Shown: positions 8,289 to 31,769 of the stretch, in pieces
How positions within the stretch are numbered: position 1 is the first letter of the stretch
Layout: each line of letters starts with the position of its first letter
NCBI RefSeq assembly: GCF_003860215.1
Contig: NZ_RQYH01000025.1
Span: 2,132-34,131, forward strand
DNA: 32,000 nt
Direction: 5' to 3'
DNA from: Desulfovibrio sp. OH1186_COT-070
Lineage (GTDB): Bacteria > Desulfobacterota > Desulfovibrionia > Desulfovibrionales > Desulfovibrionaceae
The notes under the pieces: generated by a model
Databases searched by the model: none
Told to the model about the DNA's origin: nothing
The model's input: the letters and a program-made list of their open reading frames with translations, nothing else
Program-made: the position numbers and the translations under genes

Positions 8289-9374
8289 ATGAAAAAGTCA
8301 ATCCTGCTTTTGCTGTGCACCGCCCTGCTGGCGGGCACAATGCTTGTGGCGGCAGAATCCGGACAAAAGGATCACGGAGGTACGGCAGACATGAAGACAC
8401 AAAAAACCTCCGGCCTGCGGGACGCATACTTTGCGGGCGGCTGTTTCTGGGGGGTGGAGGAATATTTTTCCAGAATTCCTGGAGTGATGGATGTCGCCGT
8501 AGGGTATGCCAACGGCGAAAAAAAGAACCCCACCTATGAAGAAGTCTGCTCCGGAAAAACGGGCCATGCGGAAACCGCGCATGTGCGCTACGATCCGGCC
8601 ATTGTCAGCCTGCGGACTCTCGCCGGACAATTTTTCAAGATCATTGACCCGTTCAGCGTGAACCGGCAGGGAAACGATGTGGGCAGCCAGTACCGGACCG
8701 GGCTGTACTATCAGCATGAGGAAGACAGGAAGATTCTTGCAGACGTAATGTCGGAGGAAGCAAAAAAATACGGCAGACCGCTGGCAGTGGAACTGACGCC
8801 GCTGAAAAACTATTACCCGGCGGAAGACTACCACCAAGACTACCTGAAGAAAAATCCCAACGGCTACTGCCACATCAGTTTCGACAGCCTCAAGGATATT
8901 CCCGCCCGGACAACGGGCCTGGTGGACCCCCAAAAGTATTCCAAACCGTCTGAAGCGGAGTTGAAAAAACGCCTCACGCCGGAGGAATATGCCGTTACCC
9001 GGCAGGCGGGGACAGAGCGCGCATTTTCCGGAAAGTACTGGGACCACAAGGCAGACGGCATATATGTGGATGTGGTGACGGGAGAGCCGCTTTTTTCTTC
9101 CGCCGACAAATTCGATTCCGGGTGCGGCTGGCCAAGCTTTTCAAAGCCCGTTGATCCGGCTGTGGTGACCGACCATGAAGACCGCAGCCACGGCATGCTG
9201 CGGACCGAGGTACGCAGCCGCGTGGGGGATTCCCATCTGGGGCATGTTTTTGACGACGGGCCGAAAGAGAGGGGCGGTCTGCGCTATTGCATCAACAGCG
9301 CCGCCATCCGTTTTGTCCCTTATGACGAAATGGAAAAAGAGGGCTACGGAAACCTGAAACACCTTGTCCGGTAA
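8289..9374 (+). CDS. msrAB: Bifunctional methionine sulfoxide reductase MsrA-MsrB with N-terminal signal peptide
   Basis: Start is ATG 8289 with SD GAGGA. The signal-like N-terminus is [24 protein letters not shown]. The MsrA motif [10 protein letters not shown] is present. The MsrB region carries CGWPSF and the [11 protein letters not shown] catalytic Cys. Confidence 0.9.
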
Positions 9375-26700: not shown

Positions 26701-27237
26701 CATTTCTCCGGGGCGAACCACCATGGGCACACGCCGGTATCCCCATTCCGAAGCCTGCTCCAGCAGAAGATCCGGCGACCAGTCGCTGCCCCACGCGAGA
26801 TCCAGACTGCGGGAGGCGAAGAAATCCCGCGGCATGTAACGCAACAAAAGGCTTTGGGCGCTGACCACAAGGCAGTGCGCCCCGGGCAGGGCCAAGGCAT
26901 GGAATACCGCCAGCAGCGAGGCCCACCGGGCCGTATCCCGCCAGTCGATCAACTCCGGCAGGAACAGGCAGGGGCTTTGCCATGACGGCATGGACAGGGA
27001 AACATCGCCGAGGGAAAGCTCCGGCGCAAAAAGCGTGGTCAGGGCGCGGGCAGCATGAAATTCCTCACGGGTGCGGGCGAGAATGACCGAAGTGCGGCCC
27101 GCAGCCTGCGCCTCGCAGGCAATGCGGCAGCGGGTGACCATGCCGCTGCGCTCCAGATGTATCCTGCTGTCTCCGGACGCAAGCAGTGTTTTGATATCCA
27201 TGCCGTGATCTGCGTGAAAGGACAAAGGGGGCGGCAT
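23740..27237 (-). CDS. mfd: Transcription-repair coupling factor Mfd
   Basis: The product contains the CarD-like segment (LKPGDLLVHRDYGIGRF). SF2 helicase motifs are present (CGDVGFGKTEVA, DEEQRFGV) along with a TRCF C-terminal domain. ATG 27237 is used as the start; ATG 27201 is an alternative and neither has a strong SD. Confidence 0.93.
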   Translation of the reverse strand: MPPPLSFHADHGMDIKTLLASGDSRIHLERSGMVTRCRIACEAQAAGRTSVILARTREEFHAARALTTLFAPELSLGDVSLSMPSWQSPCLFLPELIDWRDTARWASLLAVFHALALPGAHCLVVSAQSLLLRYMPRDFFASRSLDLAWGSDWSPDLLLEQASEWGYRRVPMVVRPGEMARRGDILDIFPSGYARPLRLEFFGDTLEDMRFFDAESQRSLLDCAEFTLLPVSPLALDASALDAARHRCNDMLSQGRISENDCYSFKKSLDAGGEGLLPGCVLENPSLLEDWLPADSLWLLPGEADSGDALLQERLLLKERLESLEAPVPQPTSLALRKRSLPAPWNSFQCVHAEPLVVGVEQRGIRLAERPLHSFADLFSQPGASDRPWQHLSAALKEWRGGRRQVVLSFASARSRAGFLKLAAQEGIAPALRYAPDQAGLFALVSPFRRGAELAWDNALILGEEILYPRAEKAPRVSSRVFKGLDSFDDLKPGDLLVHRDYGIGRFAGLHRLDMHAAANDFLLVEYSGQDKLYVPVDRLGLVQRFKGAEGSEPALDRLGTAAWASGREKARKAIEKIAADLVEMYAYRKVTKGFRYDPPGDLYHEFEATFGFEETPDQAKAIRDVLEDMDKSAPMDRLVCGDVGFGKTEVALRAAFRAASEGRQVAMLCPTTVLAEQHYQTFRARLAGFPVNVGLLSRFVPRPRQKEVLRAAEAGQTDILIGTHRILSNDVKLPNLALLILDEEQRFGVRHKEKLKALKKNVDVLTLTATPIPRTLQLSMSGIRELSIIETAPQDRKPVAGAVLQRDDDVLRKVLERELERQGQVFWVYNRVQGLERVAEYVRGLVPSARVGMAHGQMAEVALEGTMRKFWHGELDVLVCTSIVESGLDFPRANTLVVDQAQMFGLGQLYQLRGRVGRSDRQAYAFFVVPDARRLTPVAEERLRVIMDMDYLGAGFQVAMEDLRLRGAGNILGEVQSGHMCRVGLDLYLEMLEEEVSRLKGTPGALVPETELTLGLPAHIPETYVEDGRERLRCYKALTSAGSGSAREAAALDMRDRFGPFPEEVQNFLAVLDFKQFLGRLQVQKADVRRDHVRLTWPDGQSAVQPESILKLASSVPGVRMLPPAGLHLPLPPEESFSGGLQRICALLEGVRVPSPPAGTECPQ

Positions 27238-27258
27238 GTGGCCGCCCCCGGTAAGGCA

Positions 27259-27573
27259 TCAATGACCGCCGCAACCGGCGCAGGAGGAGCATCCGCCGCC
27301 GGTAGCAGGGAAAGGATTGGCAGGCTCGACCACAAAACCCATGTGATTGAGATCCACTGTCACGCCCTGCACCTGTTCCAGCAGTTCGGCGTTGATGCAG
27401 AAAGTGTGGCCTGCCTGTTCTTCGGTTTTGTCTTCCGCGCCCGGTTCGTCCAGAGCCAGGGCCAGACGGGGGCCGCCGCACCCCCCGGCCATGTATATCC
27501 TGATGGGGGCTTTTTCCTTGCCCTCGAAAAATGCATCAAGCTCCTTGCGAGCGCTGTCAGTCACGGTAAGCAT
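27259..27573 (-). CDS. HesB/IscA-like small protein, Cys form (paralog of the adjacent Sec gene)
   Basis: Start is ATG 27573 with SD GAGGA 7 nt upstream. The track start 27579 is a TTG. The 104-aa product is MLTVTDSARKELDAFFEGKEKAPIRIYMAGGCGGPRLALALDEP...GGGCSSCAGCGGH. Confidence 0.85.
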   Translation of the reverse strand: MLTVTDSARKELDAFFEGKEKAPIRIYMAGGCGGPRLALALDEPGAEDKTEEQAGHTFCINAELLEQVQGVTVDLNHMGFVVEPANPFPATGGGCSSCAGCGGH

Positions 27574-27627
27574 TGTCAATTCCTCGATATTTTTTGATTG
27601 TTGTTTGCAGGGCGGCGGTTTTGCATG

Positions 27628-27942
27628 TCAATGGCTTCCGCAACTGCTGCAGCTGCTGCACCCGCCGCCGGTGTCGGCAAAGGGCACGTCAGGTCTTACC
27701 ACAAATCCCATATAGTTCAAATCCACTGTCACCCCCTGCACCTGTTCCAGCAACCCGGCATCCATGCAGAAGGTATAGCCAGCCTGTTCCTCGGTCTTGT
27801 CCTGTTCGTTCGGCTCATCCAGAGCCAGGGCCAGACGGGGACCGCCTCAACCGGCCGCCATATATACCCTGACGGGCTCCTTCTTTTTGCCGGCAAAAAA
27901 AGCATCAAGCTCCTTGCGGGCACTTTCTGTCAATGTTATCAT
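27628..27942 (-). CDS. HesB/IscA-like selenoprotein candidate with in-frame UGA (Sec) at codon 32; absent from the ORF track
   Basis: ATG 27942 is preceded by SD GGAGGA 8 nt upstream. An in-frame TGA lies at 27849-27847 and the stop TGA at 27630-27628. Manual translation gives MITLTESARKELDAFFAGKKKEPVRVYMAAG-U-GGPRLALALDEPNEQDKTEEQAGYTFCMDAGLLEQVQGVTVDLNYMGFVVRPDVPFADTGGGCSSCSSCGSH. It aligns without gaps to the neighbouring 104-aa paralog (78/104 identical by hand count), with U opposite Cys32. Confidence 0.8.
27802..27834 (-). promoter_or_regulatory. Candidate bacterial SECIS hairpin downstream of the UGA
   Basis: The core on the mRNA is GGCUC-UGGAU-GAGCC (27826-27812), starting 20 nt after the UGA. 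The 5-nt apical loop contains GG. A possible lower CUG/CAG helix (27834-27832 with 27804-27802) lies across an internal loop. The Cys paralog has GAA instead of GAG here, which breaks the central C-G pair. Confidence 0.4.
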
Positions 27943-27976
27943 GTCTTGTATCCTCCAAATAGACTGTGGTTGCTGT

Positions 27977-28103: not shown

Positions 28104-28667
28104 ATGTCTGTGGCAACCCGCCTTCTGAACGCCGGAGAAATGGCACAACTTCTTGAAAATCTGGCGTCCCGGATTCTTGAAAAGCATACCCGCTGCGAAA
28201 ATGTGATGCTTGTAGGCATCCAGCGCCGGGGAGCGGATCTGGCGCACCGCCTGGCCGGCCTGCTGAAAAAACGTCTCGGCCGCCCCGTTCCTCTGGGAAC
28301 TCTGGACATCAACCTCTACCGCGACGACTGGACAAGCCTGGCCGGAAAAACGCCGCATGTGGGGCAATCGCGCATTGACGAAGGAGTGGACAACCGCACC
28401 GTCATTCTTGTGGATGACGTCTTGTATACGGGGCGCACTGTCCGCGCGGCTCTGGAAGCCCTGCTGGATTACGGCCGCCCCAGTTCTGTGGAACTTCTGG
28501 CCCTTGTTGACCGGGGACACCGCGAGCTTCCCATCCATGCGGATTATGTGGGGCTTGCTGTGTGCACCGACCGTCAGGAACAGGTCAACGTGCTCCTGAC
28601 AGAACGTGACGGCGAAGACGTTGTGCGCCTTGAGCGCCCCGGCAGCGCTGGCGCGACCCCAAGGTAA
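28104..28667 (+). CDS. pyrR: Bifunctional pyrimidine regulatory protein / uracil phosphoribosyltransferase PyrR
   Basis: Start is ATG 28104 with SD GGAG. The product carries the PRPP-binding motif VILVDDVLYTGRTVRAA. It also contains LDINLYRDD and LVDRGHRELPI, colinear with B. subtilis PyrR as I recall it. Confidence 0.9.
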   Translation: MSVATRLLNAGEMAQLLENLASRILEKHTRCENVMLVGIQRRGADLAHRLAGLLKKRLGRPVPLGTLDINLYRDDWTSLAGKTPHVGQSRIDEGVDNRTVILVDDVLYTGRTVRAALEALLDYGRPSSVELLALVDRGHRELPIHADYVGLAVCTDRQEQVNVLLTERDGEDVVRLERPGSAGATPR

Positions 28668-28728: not shown

Positions 28729-28760
28729 CATATCCGCTCCACGGTTGTGGAGCGCATATG
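28729..28760. repeat. Inverted repeat with 14-bp arms, one mismatch and a 4-nt spacer, in the yedE leader
   Basis: CATATCCGCTCCAC-GGTT-GTGGAGCGCATATG. It lies 62 nt after the pyrR stop and 124 nt before the yedE ATG. No U-tract follows. Confidence 0.55.
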
Positions 28761-28883
28761 GACGGGGGGAGCGGCTCGGACAGGGATGCCCCGCTTGCCC
28801 GCACTGACCCGCTGGATTCCTCCGTCCGCAGTTCCGGCCCCGGCCGGACAATACGGGCACTGCCCGCCACGAAGGAGGAGTTC

Positions 28884-29978
28884 ATGAAAACAGGCTTCAA
28901 CTTTTTTTCCACTGCCACAGGCATTGCGGCCACAGGGCTCATCTTCGGGGTTCTGGCCATTTTGCTGCAAAAGGCCGGAAATCCCGGCAACATGGGCGTC
29001 TGCGTGGCCTGCTTCAGCCGGGATCTGGCCGGGGCCGTGGGGCTGCACCGGGCAGCCGTTGTGCAGTACCTGCGCCCGGAGATCATGGGCATGGTGCTGG
29101 GCGCGTTCGGCGCAGCGCTGGCCTTTGGCGAATACCGGCCGCGCGGCGGCTCCGCACCGGCAACACGCTTTCTTCTGGGGGCCATTGCGGGCATCGGCGC
29201 ACTGGTTTTTCTGGGCTGCCCCTGGCGGGCTCTGCTGCGTCTGGCCGGGGGAGACGCCCATGCAATCTTTGGCCTGCTGGGGCTCATTGCCGGGGTCGGC
29301 GTGGGCACAATTTTCTTTCGCATGGGCTTTTCTCTGGGGCGCAGCCAGACCCAAGGCAAAATTTCCGGCCTTGTTCTGCCCGCCCTCATGCTGGGCCTTG
29401 TGGCCCTTGCTCTGGCCAACCCGCCGATTCCCGATCAGGCGCAGAGCGGCGTGCTCTTTTATTCCCTCAAAGGCCCCGGCGCACAGCACGCGCCCTTTTT
29501 CCTCTCGCTGGGCGCAGGGCTGGCTGTAGGCTTTTTTGCCCAGCGCAGCCGCTTCTGTACCATGGGAGCTGTGCGTGACGTGCTGCTTTTCAACCAGTGG
29601 CATCTGGCCCTGGGATTTTTGGCCATGCTGGCGGCGGCACTGTTCATGAACCTCGCGTTCGGCACGTTCCACTGGGGTTTTGAGAACCAGCCCGTAGCCC
29701 AGCCGGACAATGTCTGGAACTTTCTGGGCATGGTCACCTCGGGGCTGGCCTTTGCCCTGGCGGGCGGTTGCCCCGGCCGCCAGCTTTTCATGGCCGGTGA
29801 AGGAGACAACGATGCCGCAGTCTTTGCGCTGGGGCTTGTCACGGGCGCAGCCATGGCCCACAACTTCGGCATGGCCTCCAGCCCGGTGGGCATTGGCCCT
29901 CACGGCATTGCCGCCACCCTGGGCGGTTTGGGCATCTGCCTGATGATCGGCTTTTTCAACTGCAAGCGAGGCGCCTGA
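28884..29978 (+). CDS. yedE: YedE-family membrane protein (putative selenium/sulfur-compound transporter)
   Basis: Start is ATG 28884 with a strong SD (GAAGGAGG). The product is polytopic and has the two pseudo-repeat conserved-Cys motifs of this family, GNPGNMGVCVACFSRD and SRFCTMGAVRD, plus LAGGCPGRQ. Confidence 0.85.
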   Translation: MKTGFNFFSTATGIAATGLIFGVLAILLQKAGNPGNMGVCVACFSRDLAGAVGLHRAAVVQYLRPEIMGMVLGAFGAALAFGEYRPRGGSAPATRFLLGAIAGIGALVFLGCPWRALLRLAGGDAHAIFGLLGLIAGVGVGTIFFRMGFSLGRSQTQGKISGLVLPALMLGLVALALANPPIPDQAQSGVLFYSLKGPGAQHAPFFLSLGAGLAVGFFAQRSRFCTMGAVRDVLLFNQWHLALGFLAMLAAALFMNLAFGTFHWGFENQPVAQPDNVWNFLGMVTSGLAFALAGGCPGRQLFMAGEGDNDAAVFALGLVTGAAMAHNFGMASSPVGIGPHGIAATLGGLGICLMIGFFNCKRGA

Positions 29979-30208
29979 TGTCTGTTCTCATTGATACGCG
30001 AGGGCTTTCCTGCCCCCAACCCGTACTTTTGTTTCTGAACGCAGCCAAGGCCGATCCCGACAAAACCTTTACCGTGCTGGTGGACAATGACGCCAGCCGT
30101 GAAAACGTCAGCCGCGCGGCCCGCAACCACGGGTTTGGCGTGACCCTCCAACAGGAAGACGAAGGCGTGATACGCCTGGAACTGACAAAAAACGGCCAGG
30201 CGTCCTGA
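29978..30208 (+). CDS. yedF: TusA/SirA-like sulfurtransferase-fold protein (YedF-like)
   Basis: The ATG overlaps the yedE stop (TGATG). The 76-aa product contains the DTRGLSCPQP CPxP active-site motif. Confidence 0.8.
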   Translation: MSVLIDTRGLSCPQPVLLFLNAAKADPDKTFTVLVDNDASRENVSRAARNHGFGVTLQQEDEGVIRLELTKNGQAS

Positions 30209-30279
30209 CTTTGGCGACGCCCAAGGCTATTGACGGGGCATCCCGGCGGTTCGCCTGCCGGGATGCCCAAGGACACCGT

Positions 30280-30894
30280 ATGCCCACAACCAGCCGACAC
30301 ACAGGCGCGGACGGCTTTTTTGCAAAACTGCGTGCGGGCGTTGCGGCCCTTGCCCACCGGATACGGTCTCCTGACGGACGCAAGGCCCTCAATGATCGGG
30401 GCCTGCTGGTCTTCAGCCATACGGGCGAGGTGATCAGAGCGGAACGGCTGTTGCGGGCAACGGGCTTTGACGTGGAGGTCAAAGGGCCGCCGCCGCAGTT
30501 GCGGACAGGCTGTGACATGGTCGTGGTTTTTGCCCTGATGCGGCAGGCAGCCGTTCTGGAAACGCTGCAACGCATCGGCCTGGTGCCGCAACAGGTCGTC
30601 AGCGCCCAGGACGTGCTGCTGGAACCGGTGTCCCTTTTTCAGGTCAAGCATTTTGGCGGACGCTGGATCATGGTTCGCGCGGCCAACATGAAGATCACCC
30701 TGGACAAAACGGACAACCGCATTGTGAACATTTCCGGCGGGGGCTGCCCCGATGTGCCGTGGCTGGCCCACAAATTGTGCGGCCTTCGCCTTGACCAGGC
30801 CCCGGAGCCCCTCTCGCTGGGCAGCACCCTCTGCTGCTACAGCCTGCAAAAAGCCTTTGAGGAATTGCGGAGGCAGAGCGCATGTGGTGCATAG
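30280..30894 (+). CDS. DUF3343 (putative Se/S carrier-like) domain protein with Cys-rich C-terminal extension
   Basis: Start is ATG 30280 with SD AAGGA; TTG 30211 is an alternative start. The DUF3343-like core is LLVFSHTGEVIRAERLLRATGFDVEVKGPPPQLRTGCDMVVVF. The C-terminal half carries GGGCPDVPW, TLCCYS and a terminal SACGA. Confidence 0.7.
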   Translation: MPTTSRHTGADGFFAKLRAGVAALAHRIRSPDGRKALNDRGLLVFSHTGEVIRAERLLRATGFDVEVKGPPPQLRTGCDMVVVFALMRQAAVLETLQRIGLVPQQVVSAQDVLLEPVSLFQVKHFGGRWIMVRAANMKITLDKTDNRIVNISGGGCPDVPWLAHKLCGLRLDQAPEPLSLGSTLCCYSLQKAFEELRRQSACGA

Positions 30895-31769
30895 TGGGCA
30901 CCCTGCCCCAGGAAGATATGCCTCTCTGCCCGCAGGGAGTTCGCGCGCAAAGCAGCCTGCAAAACGGCATGCTGTGCCTGCCCGACGGGCACAAAGTTCC
31001 CGTGGAGCGGGGCACAGCGGCACTGGCGGCCACTGCCCTGACGGTTTGCAGCGCACTGGGGCTGGAGCCGCCCCGCCTGCTTCTGGTGGGCGATCCGGGA
31101 AACGGCGCGGGCAGCCGCGCCATCTACGCATGGCTGGAAGAACACCTGGCGGAGATGGCTCCCGCCGGGCTTGTCTTCCATTATCTTTTTCCGGATACGG
31201 ACGGGCACAACCGCGTTCTGCTGACCGCCCGCGCCCTGCCCCGCCCGCCGCTCATGGTGGCTGATGCCGGGTTCATGTATGCCGCCAAGATGAGTGGGTA
31301 TGCCGATGCCTATGACCTGTTCACCCCTGACATGGGGGAACTGGCTTTTCTGGCCGACGAGCAGGCGCCCCATCCTTTCTATACACGGGGCTTTCTGCTG
31401 GCGGAAGAGGATGACGCCCCTGCCCTGCTGGCCCGCGCGCAAGCCCACGGCAACTGCCCCGCCAACCTTCTGATCAAGGGGGCCCGCGACCTCATTGTGT
31501 GCGGAGGAAGGGTGGCGCACACCGTATCCCGACCGTGTGTGCCGGCCATGGAATGCATCGGGGGAACAGGGGACATGGTGACCGGGCTGGTCACGGCCTT
31601 TCTTGTGAAGGGCTTTTCTGTGGAGCAAGCCTGCCTGACGGCGGCGCGTCTTGCCCGGCTGCTGGCAAAGGCCCATGATCCTGATCCGGGAACCACCGTG
31701 GGGCAACTGCTGGAAAGCCTGCCGCAGGTTCTGCGCGACTGCGGAAAAGACCTCGCCTGTCTGGGATAA
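30882..31769 (+). CDS. Ribokinase-fold protein resembling the YjeF C-terminal (Carb_kinase / NAD(P)HX dehydratase-like) domain
   Basis: ATG 30882 is preceded by SD GGAGG and overlaps the preceding gene by 13 nt. The motifs VADAGFMY, LFTPDMGELAFL, LLIKGARDLIV and GGTGDMVTGLVTAFL occur in the order typical of the Carb_kinase family. Confidence 0.65.
   Translation: MWCIVGTLPQEDMPLCPQGVRAQSSLQNGMLCLPDGHKVPVERGTAALAATALTVCSALGLEPPRLLLVGDPGNGAGSRAIYAWLEEHLAEMAPAGLVFHYLFPDTDGHNRVLLTARALPRPPLMVADAGFMYAAKMSGYADAYDLFTPDMGELAFLADEQAPHPFYTRGFLLAEEDDAPALLARAQAHGNCPANLLIKGARDLIVCGGRVAHTVSRPCVPAMECIGGTGDMVTGLVTAFLVKGFSVEQACLTAARLARLLAKAHDPDPGTTVGQLLESLPQVLRDCGKDLACLG

What the first reader, a model, noticed from the sequence alone, without database searches (positions are those of the whole stretch)
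27628..27942. Hidden selenoprotein gene: HesB/IscA-like ORF with in-frame UGA aligned to the Cys of its neighbour
The minus-strand frame from ATG 27942 to stop 27628 (315 nt) is interrupted once, by TGA at 27849-27847 (codon 32). Neither half reaches the ORF-track length cut-off, so the gene is not listed. Translating through the TGA gives a 104-aa protein that aligns without gaps to the adjacent 104-aa gene product (27259-27573). By hand count 78 of 104 residues are identical. Similarity is equally strong before the TGA (SARKELDAFF, YMA) and after it (GGPRLALALDEP, KTEEQAG, LLEQVQGVTVDLN, GGGCSSC). The TGA lies exactly opposite Cys32 (G-C-GGPRL versus G-U-GGPRL). A strong SD (GGAGGA) precedes the ATG. 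Conservation continuing past a stop, a Cys/UGA column and a redox-type motif are the classical signature of Sec decoding. A HesB-like selenoprotein family exists in TIGRFAMs (HesB_rel_seleno, as I recall). Standard gene callers would miss this copy or call it a pseudogene.
Basis: partly seen in the sequence, partly recalled or inferred. Interest (0 to 1): 0.85.

Follow-up and report, generated by a model that had tools for sequence, protein, structure and literature searches.

The report
Known HesB-like selenoprotein gene, confirmed
The interrupted reading frame is a real gene for a small IscA/HesB-like protein that carries selenocysteine at its first metal-binding cysteine position, but this selenoprotein family has been known in Desulfovibrio since 2006, so the find is correct and ordinary.

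Summary
The minus-strand frame 27942..27628 has 104 codons and one in-frame TGA (27849-27847, codon 32). That TGA lies opposite Cys32 of the adjacent 104-aa paralogue, and 78 of 104 residues are identical without gaps.

The selenoprotein reading is strongly supported:
- The TGA is present in 13 independent assemblies of this and sister lineages.
- dN/dS is about 0.1 on both sides of the TGA.
- Among 203 family gene copies collected from about 100 loci, 76 have TGA and 125 have TGC/TGT at this column.
- All 18 distinct Sec-form sequences carry the hairpin GGCUC-UGGAY-GAGCC 20 nt after the UGA. Only 1 of 33 Cys forms keeps it, although many encode the same A-L-D-E-P peptide.
- The protein passes NCBIfam NF038090 (IscA_HesB_Se) and is 57% identical to the published Desulfovibrio vulgaris HesB-like selenoprotein.

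The window comes from an unclassified oral Desulfovibrio. A gap in the RefSeq and GenBank accession series suggests NCBI already annotates the gene.

Not tested: selA/B/C/D in this genome. Minor correction: TIGR01911 is not the matching model.

A tandem array of one Sec copy plus one or two Cys copies between pyrR and mfd is widespread in Desulfovibrionaceae.

The parts
27628..27942 (-). Selenoprotein gene: a 104-aa IscA/HesB-family protein with Sec at residue 32. The range includes its own TGA stop at 27630-27628.
   Evidence: Translation. NF038090 92.6 bits against cut-off 85, and PF01521 27.3 against 26.3. dN/dS about 0.1 on both sides of the TGA. 57% identity to the published D. vulgaris HesB-like selenoprotein.
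27847..27849 (-). In-frame UGA read as selenocysteine (codon 32). It aligns to Cys32 of the paralogue and to Cys35 of E. coli IscA.
   Evidence: Family-wide column count TGA 76, TGC 123, TGT 2. Alignment to IscA 1r94 '..SGCSG..'.
27811..27827 (-). SECIS-like hairpin U-GGCUC-UGGAU-GAGCC-G. The 5-bp core stem is 27826-27822 / 27816-27812, the loop is 27821-27817, and a U.G closing pair extends the base. The core stem starts 20 nt after the UGA.
   Evidence: Fold. The 5-bp stem is intact in 17/17 distinct Sec forms plus L101, against 1/33 distinct Cys forms. It is the RNAalifold consensus structure. The chance of the hairpin-compatible codon set given the peptide is about 0.027.
27951..27956 (-). 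Shine-Dalgarno GGAGGA, 8 nt upstream of the ATG.
   Evidence: Read directly from the sequence.
27640..27660 (-). C-terminal C-S-S-C-S-S-C motif (Cys95, Cys98, Cys101). These are the presumed partner ligands of Sec32.
   Evidence: Translation. C95 and C101 are invariant and C98 is at least 90% conserved in alignment A1.
27259..27573 (-). Tandem Cys-containing paralogue (104 aa), 54 nt downstream on the same strand. NCBI names it WP_124792992.1 'IscA/HesB family protein'.
   Evidence: At the hairpin position it reads GGCUC-UGGAC-GAACC, with 4 of 5 pairs.
27217..27249 (-). Terminator-like hairpin (9 G-C pairs) followed by a T-rich tail after the Cys copy. It probably marks the end of a two-gene transcription unit.
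   Evidence: This is a consensus match only; 1 was found against 1.1 expected in shuffles.
28758..30894 (+). Context, not part of the gene. YedE putative selenium transporter (28758-29978), TusA/YedF-like protein (29978-30208) and DUF3343 / Se_S_carrier protein (30280-30894), lying beyond the divergent pyrR (28104-28667).
   Evidence: TIGR04112 439.8 bits against cut-off 200. Pfam and NCBI names. The adjacency is not kept outside the syntenic group.

Best explanation
The frame 27942..27628 is a functional selenoprotein gene of the HesB-like / IscA_HesB_Se family in an unclassified (canine oral) Desulfovibrio.

Decoding. The UGA at codon 32 is decoded as selenocysteine. A short hairpin (GGCUC-UGGAU-GAGCC) lies inside the reading frame 20 nt downstream, built from the codons for A-L-D-E-P. 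It recruits SelB carrying Sec-tRNA(Sec) to the ribosome. The second UGA, 72 codons later, has no such hairpin and terminates translation.

Product. The product is a 104-aa A-type-carrier-like protein. Sec replaces the first of the conserved ligand cysteines (the Cys35 position of IscA). Together with the C-terminal CxxCxxC motif it presumably binds or transfers an Fe-S cluster, iron, or a sulfur/selenium species.

Partner. The gene is followed by a Cys paralogue, with which it is probably co-transcribed.

Shown here: the frame, the Cys/Sec column, purifying selection through the UGA, the Sec-specific hairpin, and family membership. Inferred: SelB recruitment, the ligand role of Sec, and co-transcription.
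For: - Sequence facts.
- Not an error: the TGA is identical in 6 assemblies and kept in 7 assemblies of two lineages about 5% diverged.
- Selection: window against L011 gives dN/dS 0/0.167 upstream and 0.025/0.215 downstream. Window against L019 gives 0.177/1.67 upstream and 0.172/1.71 downstream.
- Family-wide Cys/Sec column: 76 TGA, 125 TGY. There are 30 distinct Sec proteins in about 10 lineages, including Ca. Desulfovibrio intestinipullorum at 44% identity.
- Hairpin: 5/5 pairs in 17/17 distinct Sec sequences plus L101, against 1/33 Cys sequences. The 14 Cys forms encoding the identical ALDEP peptide break the stem with GAA, GCC or GCG.
- Codon choice: the hairpin-compatible codon set has probability about 0.027 from the window's own codon usage.
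- No reassignment: TGA is a normal stop in 4 of 13 window genes.
- Family: NF038090 passed. 57% identity, E 3e-38, to the published D. vulgaris HesB-like selenoprotein.
- Genus: Desulfovibrio species are listed with SelD, FdhA and HesB-like selenoproteins (PMC1794560).
- Experiment at family level: a HesB-like protein was shown by 75Se labelling in Methanococcus maripaludis (PMC11097638).
- Selenium use: YedE, reported as exclusive to Se-utilising organisms (PMC5322559), lies about 800 bp away.
- Machinery in the clade: SelA is ubiquitous in Desulfovibrionaceae.
Against: - No selA, selB, selC or selD and no tRNA-Sec is in the window or in any fetched locus. Their presence in this genome could not be tested.
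- The hairpin is invariant, so there is no compensatory covariation. Part of its conservation could in principle reflect shared ancestry of the Sec forms.
- On its own the local fold is not exceptional against shuffles (z = -1.4 for 60 nt).
- Rfam has no matching model.
- There is no expression or proteomic evidence for this gene.
Confidence: 0.93

Rival explanations
1. The frame is a pseudogene. After duplication of the Cys gene, one copy acquired a TGC-to-TGA nonsense mutation and is decaying.
For: A single-base change separates TGA from TGC. An intact Cys paralogue sits next door and could make the copy dispensable. Gene callers treat the frame as two fragments.
Against: The TGA is retained in sister lineages with 11-12 synonymous and only 4-5 conservative changes, and with no frameshift or second stop. 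dN/dS downstream of the TGA is about 0.1, the same as upstream, even at 75% protein identity. The same column is TGA in about 10 lineages. A hairpin specific to the TGA copies is maintained by rare codon choices.
Confidence: 0.02
2. The TGA is a sequencing or assembly error, and the true codon is TGC or TGT.
For: Only a single base distinguishes the two codons.
Against: The TGA is identical in 13 independent assemblies from different sequencing runs and in the metagenome contig L018.
Confidence: 0.005
3. The UGA is passed or used without selenocysteine. Possibilities are near-cognate read-through (Trp or Cys), or termination that gives a 31-aa peptide with independent initiation of a C-terminal fragment. 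Either could be the main outcome, or the outcome when selenium is scarce.
For: The Sec machinery of this genome was not examined. Gene callers find a 66-aa ORF starting at an alternative start codon in sister lineages. Sec insertion is generally inefficient and selenium-dependent (general knowledge).
Against: The residue is the invariant first ligand Cys of the domain, so Trp, or a split at this point, would destroy the site. The hairpin has the form and placement of bacterial SECIS elements and is specific to the UGA forms. Homologues in D. vulgaris and D. desulfuricans are accepted selenoproteins in Sec-decoding organisms.
Confidence: 0.04

Closest known systems
HesB-like selenoprotein of Desulfovibrio vulgaris and D. 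desulfuricans (Zhang, Romero, Salinas and Gladyshev 2006, Genome Biol 7:R94, PMC1794560; sequences in its supplementary file 4)
   Same: Same genus-level group and same domain. Sec is at the same column, in a UxGP-type motif followed by RLALALDEPNE. The tail is the same Gly/Ser/Cys-rich C-terminal type. The window protein is 57% identical over 90 aa, E 3e-38. The published D. desulfuricans fragment is identical to the Sec copy found in L054.
   Different: The local motif is AGUGGPR rather than GGUSGPR. Nothing of substance differs. The tandem Cys partner and the pyrR-mfd location did not come up in the passages of that paper that I read.
NCBIfam NF038090 'IscA_HesB_Se' (IscA/HesB family protein)
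   Same: Both window copies score above the curated cut-off over the full model length: 92.6 and 93.8 bits against 85. NCBI uses this name for the Cys copy, WP_124792992.1.
   Different: None. This is the family the gene belongs to.
TIGR01911 'HesB_rel_seleno', the model usually cited for HesB-like selenoproteins (reviews PMC9312934 and PMC13188914). A HesB-like protein of Methanococcus maripaludis was confirmed as a selenoprotein by 75Se labelling (PMC11097638).
   Same: Small HesB/IscA-related proteins with Sec at the first conserved Cys, motif UxGP.
   Different: The window protein scores 33.6 bits against a cut-off of 66.35, and the match covers only residues 2-76. The C-terminal part differs, so this is a sister family and not the same model.
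A-type Fe-S carriers IscA, SufA and ErpA (PF01521; PDB 1r94, 1s98, 1x0g, 2apn)
   Same: Same domain. Residue 32 aligns to the first ligand cysteine, '..GCSG..'.
   Different: The equivalog models are missed by a wide margin, for example TIGR02011 IscA at 22.8 against 150.6. The C-terminal ligand motif is CxxCxxC in a Gly/Ser-rich tail instead of C-G-C. Sec takes the place of Cys. The function is unknown.
Bacterial SECIS elements, for example E. coli fdhF (bSECIS consensus of Zhang and Gladyshev 2005)
   Same: A stem-loop inside the coding region just after the UGA, with a small apical loop containing G (criterion as quoted in PMC1088965).
   Different: The core stem is only 5 bp. It begins 20 nt after the UGA (17 nt in L009 and L010), against about 11 nt in fdhF (from memory). 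There is no Rfam model to score it against.

Membership tests
NCBIfam NF038090 IscA_HesB_Se | HMM score at or above the curated cut-off (85 bits) over the full length. | tested here: met
   92.6 bits for the Sec copy (U scored as C) and 93.8 bits for the Cys copy, covering model positions 1-101 of 101.
TIGR01911 HesB_rel_seleno | HMM score at or above the curated cut-off (66.35 bits). | tested here: not met
   33.6 and 33.5 bits, matching residues 2-76 only.
Pfam PF01521 Fe-S_biosyn (HesB/IscA domain) | Gathering score of 26.3 bits. | tested here: met
   27.3 bits for the Sec copy. The Cys copy falls just below at 24.1 bits.
IscA / SufA / ErpA proper (A-type carriers) | Equivalog HMM cut-offs, and the three ligand cysteines C-X(n)-C-G-C. 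| tested here: not met
   TIGR02011 scores 22.8 against 150.6, ErpA 20.1 against 117, and SufA 16.2 against 136. The first Cys position is conserved, as Sec, but the C-terminal motif is CSSCSSC and not CGC.
Bacterial selenoprotein gene | In-frame UGA aligned with Cys in homologues, with coding conservation continuing past it. | tested here: met
   The column reads 76 TGA against 125 TGY. dN/dS downstream is 0.10-0.12.
Bacterial selenoprotein gene | SECIS stem-loop immediately downstream of the UGA, with a small apical loop containing G. | tested here: met
   The hairpin GGCUC-UGGAU-GAGCC is present in all 18 distinct Sec forms and in 1 of 33 Cys forms. The criterion is quoted from PMC1088965.
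Bacterial selenoprotein gene | The genome encodes SelA, SelB, tRNA-Sec (selC) and SelD. | not testable with these tools
   None of these is in the window or the loci. A SelA search returned about 8000 Desulfovibrionaceae hits, and none of the 120 listed could be assigned to this organism. Indirect evidence: YedE is adjacent (PMC5322559) and the genus is known to decode Sec.
Bacterial selenoprotein gene | Selenium is actually incorporated (75Se labelling or mass spectrometry). | not testable with these tools
   Experimental. It has been done only for a HesB-like protein of M. maripaludis (PMC11097638).

The most novel reading that the evidence does not exclude
The conserved tandem array of one Sec copy plus one or two Cys copies between pyrR and mfd, found as UC, CU, CCU or CUC in most Desulfovibrionaceae loci examined, could be a selenium-responsive isoform set. 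Under this reading the Sec form is made when selenium is available and the Cys form serves as a back-up. Translation or termination at the UGA might itself couple expression to selenium supply. The protein might also act in selenium or sulfur trafficking together with the nearby YedE-TusA-DUF3343 genes, and not in Fe-S assembly.
Probability: 0.12. Interest if true: 0.45.

Novelty: already known. Interest (0 to 1): 0.15.

Why it matters
The finding matters mainly as an annotation point. Prodigal-type gene callers split this gene into 31-aa plus 45- or 66-aa fragments in every metagenome assembly examined. As a result, protein catalogues hold only fragments of the Sec form.

The biology is established. 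HesB-like proteins have been listed among bacterial selenoprotein families since the mid-2000s, including in Desulfovibrio, and a curated NCBIfam model exists.

Two modest additions come from this work:
- A clean natural control shows that the short A-L-D-E-P hairpin is selected only in UGA-bearing copies.
- Sec and Cys copies almost always sit in tandem between pyrR and mfd in this clade. That offers a simple system for studying Sec/Cys isoform use and the still unknown function of HesB-like selenoproteins.

Tried and rejected
- Rfam scan of the window: only a tRNA was found, and no bacterial SECIS family matched.
- ARAGORN on the window and 8 loci: no tRNA-Sec.
- NCBIfam scans of 26 window ORFs: no selA, selB or selD.
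- GC3-based scan for other UGA-interrupted genes in the window: it does not discriminate in this 60% GC genome and was abandoned.
An alignment query would have been the better choice.
- The metagenome scan pattern contained the Cys codon, so the direct hits were Cys-biased. Sec copies were recovered from the flanks with an HMM search on six-frame translations that read TGA as a residue.
- Exact look-up of the read-through protein: the version with U was rejected by the tool, and the version with X is not in the collection. Whether NCBI annotates the gene rests only on the accession gap.
- SelA search with the D. vulgaris sequence: it could not be tied to this organism.
- Covariation analysis: the hairpin is invariant, so it gives no compensatory changes.
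- Neighbour-joining tree of Sec and Cys forms: Sec forms are not monophyletic, but the protein is too short for a reliable tree, so it was not used.
- Functional link to YedE/TusA/DUF3343: considered, then set aside as inherited gene order. More distant family members sit next to ValRS/PrmA, a [NiFe]-hydrogenase operon, or pyrR without YedE.
- Genome-wide UGA reassignment: rejected, because TGA ends 4 of 13 window genes and both family genes.

Full report
**1. Observation**

- The frame from ATG 27942 to the TGA stop at 27630-27628 has 104 sense codons. It is interrupted once, by TGA at 27849-27847 (codon 32).
- The adjacent gene 27573..27259 also encodes 104 residues.
- The two products align without gaps at 78/104 identical residues: 22/31 before the TGA and 56/72 after it. 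At the DNA level 236/315 nt match.
- TGA lies opposite TGC, Cys32.
- GGAGGA lies 8 nt upstream of the ATG.

**2. The TGA is real and under selection**

- The exact Cys paralogue is found on many public contigs. In six independent assemblies the upstream frame is identical to the window over all 315 nt, TGA included. The gene callers split it there into a 31-aa ORF and a 45-aa ORF.
- Protein searches recovered only 66-aa C-terminal fragments of the Sec form (P0056, P0058). Their contigs come from two sister lineages that differ from the window at 16-17 of 315 nt. Both keep the TGA, and the differences are 11-12 synonymous and 4-5 conservative changes on both sides of it.
- Nei-Gojobori estimates against L011 give dN/dS of 0/0.167 upstream and 0.025/0.215 downstream. 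Against the 75%-identical orthologue L019 they are 0.177/1.67 upstream and 0.172/1.71 downstream.
- The part after the TGA is therefore translated and constrained as strongly as the part before it. A pseudogene and a sequencing error are both excluded.

**3. The Cys/Sec column across the family**

- A genome scan gave four Desulfovibrio loci. Two of them, an uncultured Desulfovibrio MAG and Ca. Desulfovibrio intestinipullorum, are 43-44% identical to the query and have TGA at the same column (AAGGUSPRLAMALDEP).
- A metagenome scan added 80 loci.
- I searched all sources with an HMM built from alignment A1, using six-frame translations in which TGA is read as a residue. This found 203 family gene copies.
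- At the Cys32 column, 123 copies have TGC, 2 have TGT, 76 have TGA, 1 has GCG and 1 has a gap.
- That amounts to 30 distinct Sec proteins in roughly ten lineages and 60 distinct Cys proteins.

**4. SECIS element**

- Downstream of the window's UGA the RNA folds into U-GGCUC-UGGAU-GAGCC-G. The core stem starts 20 nt after the UGA, and the loop contains GG.
- The hairpin is built from the codons xxG-GCU-CUG-GAY-GAG-CCn, which encode A-L-D-E-P.
- All 17 distinct Sec-form downstream sequences have the intact 5-bp stem, one of them through a G.U pair. So does an 18th from a more distant locus, L101. RNAalifold returns this hairpin as the consensus structure.
- Of 33 alignable distinct Cys-form sequences, only one can form five pairs at this place. 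The 14 that encode the very same ALDEP peptide all break the stem by using GAA for Glu, or GCC or GCG for Ala. The window's own Cys paralogue has GAC-GAA, giving 4 of 5 pairs.
- From the window's codon usage (GCU is 10% of Ala codons, GAG is 42% of Glu codons), the hairpin-compatible codon set has a probability of about 0.027 given the peptide.
- In several lineages changes at the base of the stem add U-A pairs, for example CUG to UUG at codon 39 in L011 and L015.
- Because the core is invariant there is no compensatory covariation. The evidence is the contrast between Sec and Cys forms. The lineages are not fully independent.
- TGA is an ordinary stop for 4 of 13 window genes and for both family genes. 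UGA is therefore recoded locally and not reassigned.

**5. Family and organism**

- With U scored as C, the protein passes NCBIfam NF038090 'IscA_HesB_Se' (92.6 bits, cut-off 85) and Pfam PF01521 (27.3 bits, cut-off 26.3).
- It does not pass TIGR01911 'HesB_rel_seleno' (33.6 bits, cut-off 66.35) or any IscA, SufA or ErpA equivalog model.
- Against solved structures, residue 32 aligns to the first ligand cysteine of E. coli IscA ('SGCSG') and of HI1723.
- The C-terminal ligands are CSSCSSC rather than CGC. C95 and C101 are invariant in the family.
- Exact look-ups place the window in Desulfovibrio sp. OH1186_COT-070 / OH1209_COT-279, listed as 'unclassified Desulfovibrio'.
- The accession series runs as follows: PPIase RRD69857; Cys copy RRD69858 / WP_124792992; pyrR RRD69860 / WP_124792994; TusA ..61 / ..95; DUF3343 ..62 / ..96.
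- Exactly one number is missing in each series, at the place where the Sec frame lies. I infer from this that NCBI's pipeline already annotates a protein there. I could not verify it.

**6. Comparison with what is known**

- HesB-like proteins are an established selenoprotein family. Zhang et al. 2006 count 11 members and list HesB-like selenoproteins in D. vulgaris and D. desulfuricans, alongside SelD and FdhA (PMC1794560).
- A 2026 review gives the family motif as UxGP (PMC13188914).
- The supplement of the 2006 paper holds the sequences. The D. vulgaris protein (..VYLAPGGUSGPRLALALDEPNESD..) is 57% identical to the window protein over 90 residues, E 3e-38. The D. desulfuricans fragment is identical to the Sec copy I found in L054.
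- A HesB-like protein of M. maripaludis was shown to be a selenoprotein by mutagenesis and 75Se labelling. Its function remains unclear (PMC11097638).
- The finding is therefore a correct rediscovery of a known selenoprotein in a genus where it is already documented.

**7. Context**

- The Sec and Cys copies lie head to tail, 54 nt apart. A terminator-like hairpin follows at 27249-27227, and then mfd. This suggests a two-gene unit, which is an inference.
- Upstream and divergent lies pyrR, followed by YedE (TIGR04112, 440 bits), a TusA/YedF-like gene and a DUF3343/Se_S_carrier gene. These are the candidate selenium uptake and trafficking genes of Lin et al. 2015, who report YedE only in Se-utilising organisms (PMC5322559).
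- Across the 98 sources, the family genes form arrays between pyrR and mfd: CU 34, CCU 20, UC 19 (the window's type), C 17, CC 4, CUC 3.
- YedE-TusA-DUF3343 lies beyond pyrR in several lineages but not in others.
- More distant family members sit in unrelated contexts: ValRS/PrmA, a [NiFe]-hydrogenase operon, or pyrR with an amino-acid permease.
- I therefore read the YedE adjacency as inherited gene order. It is useful as a sign that the organism uses selenium, but it is not evidence of a functional link.

**8. What remains untested**

- No sel gene and no tRNA-Sec is in the window or in any locus.
- A search with D. vulgaris SelA shows the enzyme is ubiquitous in Desulfovibrionaceae, with about 8000 strong hits. 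None of the 120 listed could be assigned to this organism.
- Selenium incorporation, SelB binding, co-transcription and the biochemical role of the protein are all inferred.

**9. Verdict**

- Novelty is low: the family is known, the genus is known, a curated model exists, and the gene is probably already annotated in RefSeq.
- The most novel reading still open is that the conserved Sec/Cys tandem array is a selenium-responsive isoform set or has a role in selenium trafficking. I give it about 0.12.

Noticed in passing
window 27259-27942; loci L001-L102: In most Desulfovibrionaceae loci examined, family genes form tandem arrays between pyrR and mfd, with one Sec copy plus one or two Cys copies. 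The counts are CU 34, CCU 20, UC 19, CUC 3, Cys-only 21. The order of the Sec and Cys copies differs between lineages.
   Followed up: partly
window 28758-30894 (+): YedE putative selenium transporter (TIGR04112, 440 bits), a TusA/YedF-like gene and a 204-aa DUF3343/Se_S_carrier plus DUF8182 gene form a cluster beyond pyrR. It is followed by a weak Carb_kinase-like gene at 30882-31769. For the exact 406-aa YedE sequence the look-up showed no NCBI accession, and YedE has no number in the accession series.
   Followed up: partly
window 27201-27249 (-): The longest mfd ORF starts at 27237, inside the terminator-like hairpin that follows the Cys copy. RefSeq starts mfd at 27201 (1153 aa), and GenBank has a 1133-aa version. 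The 1165-aa ORF is probably over-extended.
   Followed up: partly
L011-L017, about 6202-6424 in L011: Sister lineages have a 223-nt spacer between the Sec and Cys copies, where the window has 54 nt. This is an indel of about 169 nt of unknown content.
   Followed up: no
L008 1675 (+); L009 and L010 at about 5500 and 6650: L008 carries an extra, divergent family copy with GCG (Ala) at the Cys/Sec column. L009 and L010 carry three copies (C-U-C), and the outer ones are very divergent, for example CKGPMLIIALDEA.
   Followed up: no
L096 3659 (+), Cys copy: This is the only Cys form with a perfect hairpin at the SECIS position. It reads GGCGC-UGGAU-GCGCC, a doubly changed stem relative to GGCUC/GAGCC. 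It could be a remnant SECIS or chance.
   Followed up: no
L102 2670-6179: In one more distant lineage a Cys-form family gene directly follows the [NiFe]-hydrogenase small and large subunit genes and the HycI maturation protease gene. AprB/AprA-like genes lie nearby.
   Followed up: no
L077 1587 (+): One Sec copy has a 10-residue partial duplication just before the Sec codon (..GGNPRLSPPAGGURGPRL..). It may be an assembly artefact on a low-coverage contig.
   Followed up: no
window 8289-9374 (+): This is a fused MsrA/MsrB methionine sulfoxide reductase gene, read as one uninterrupted ORF. MsrA is a selenoprotein in some Deltaproteobacteria (PMC1794560), but no in-frame TGA interrupts it here.
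   Followed up: no
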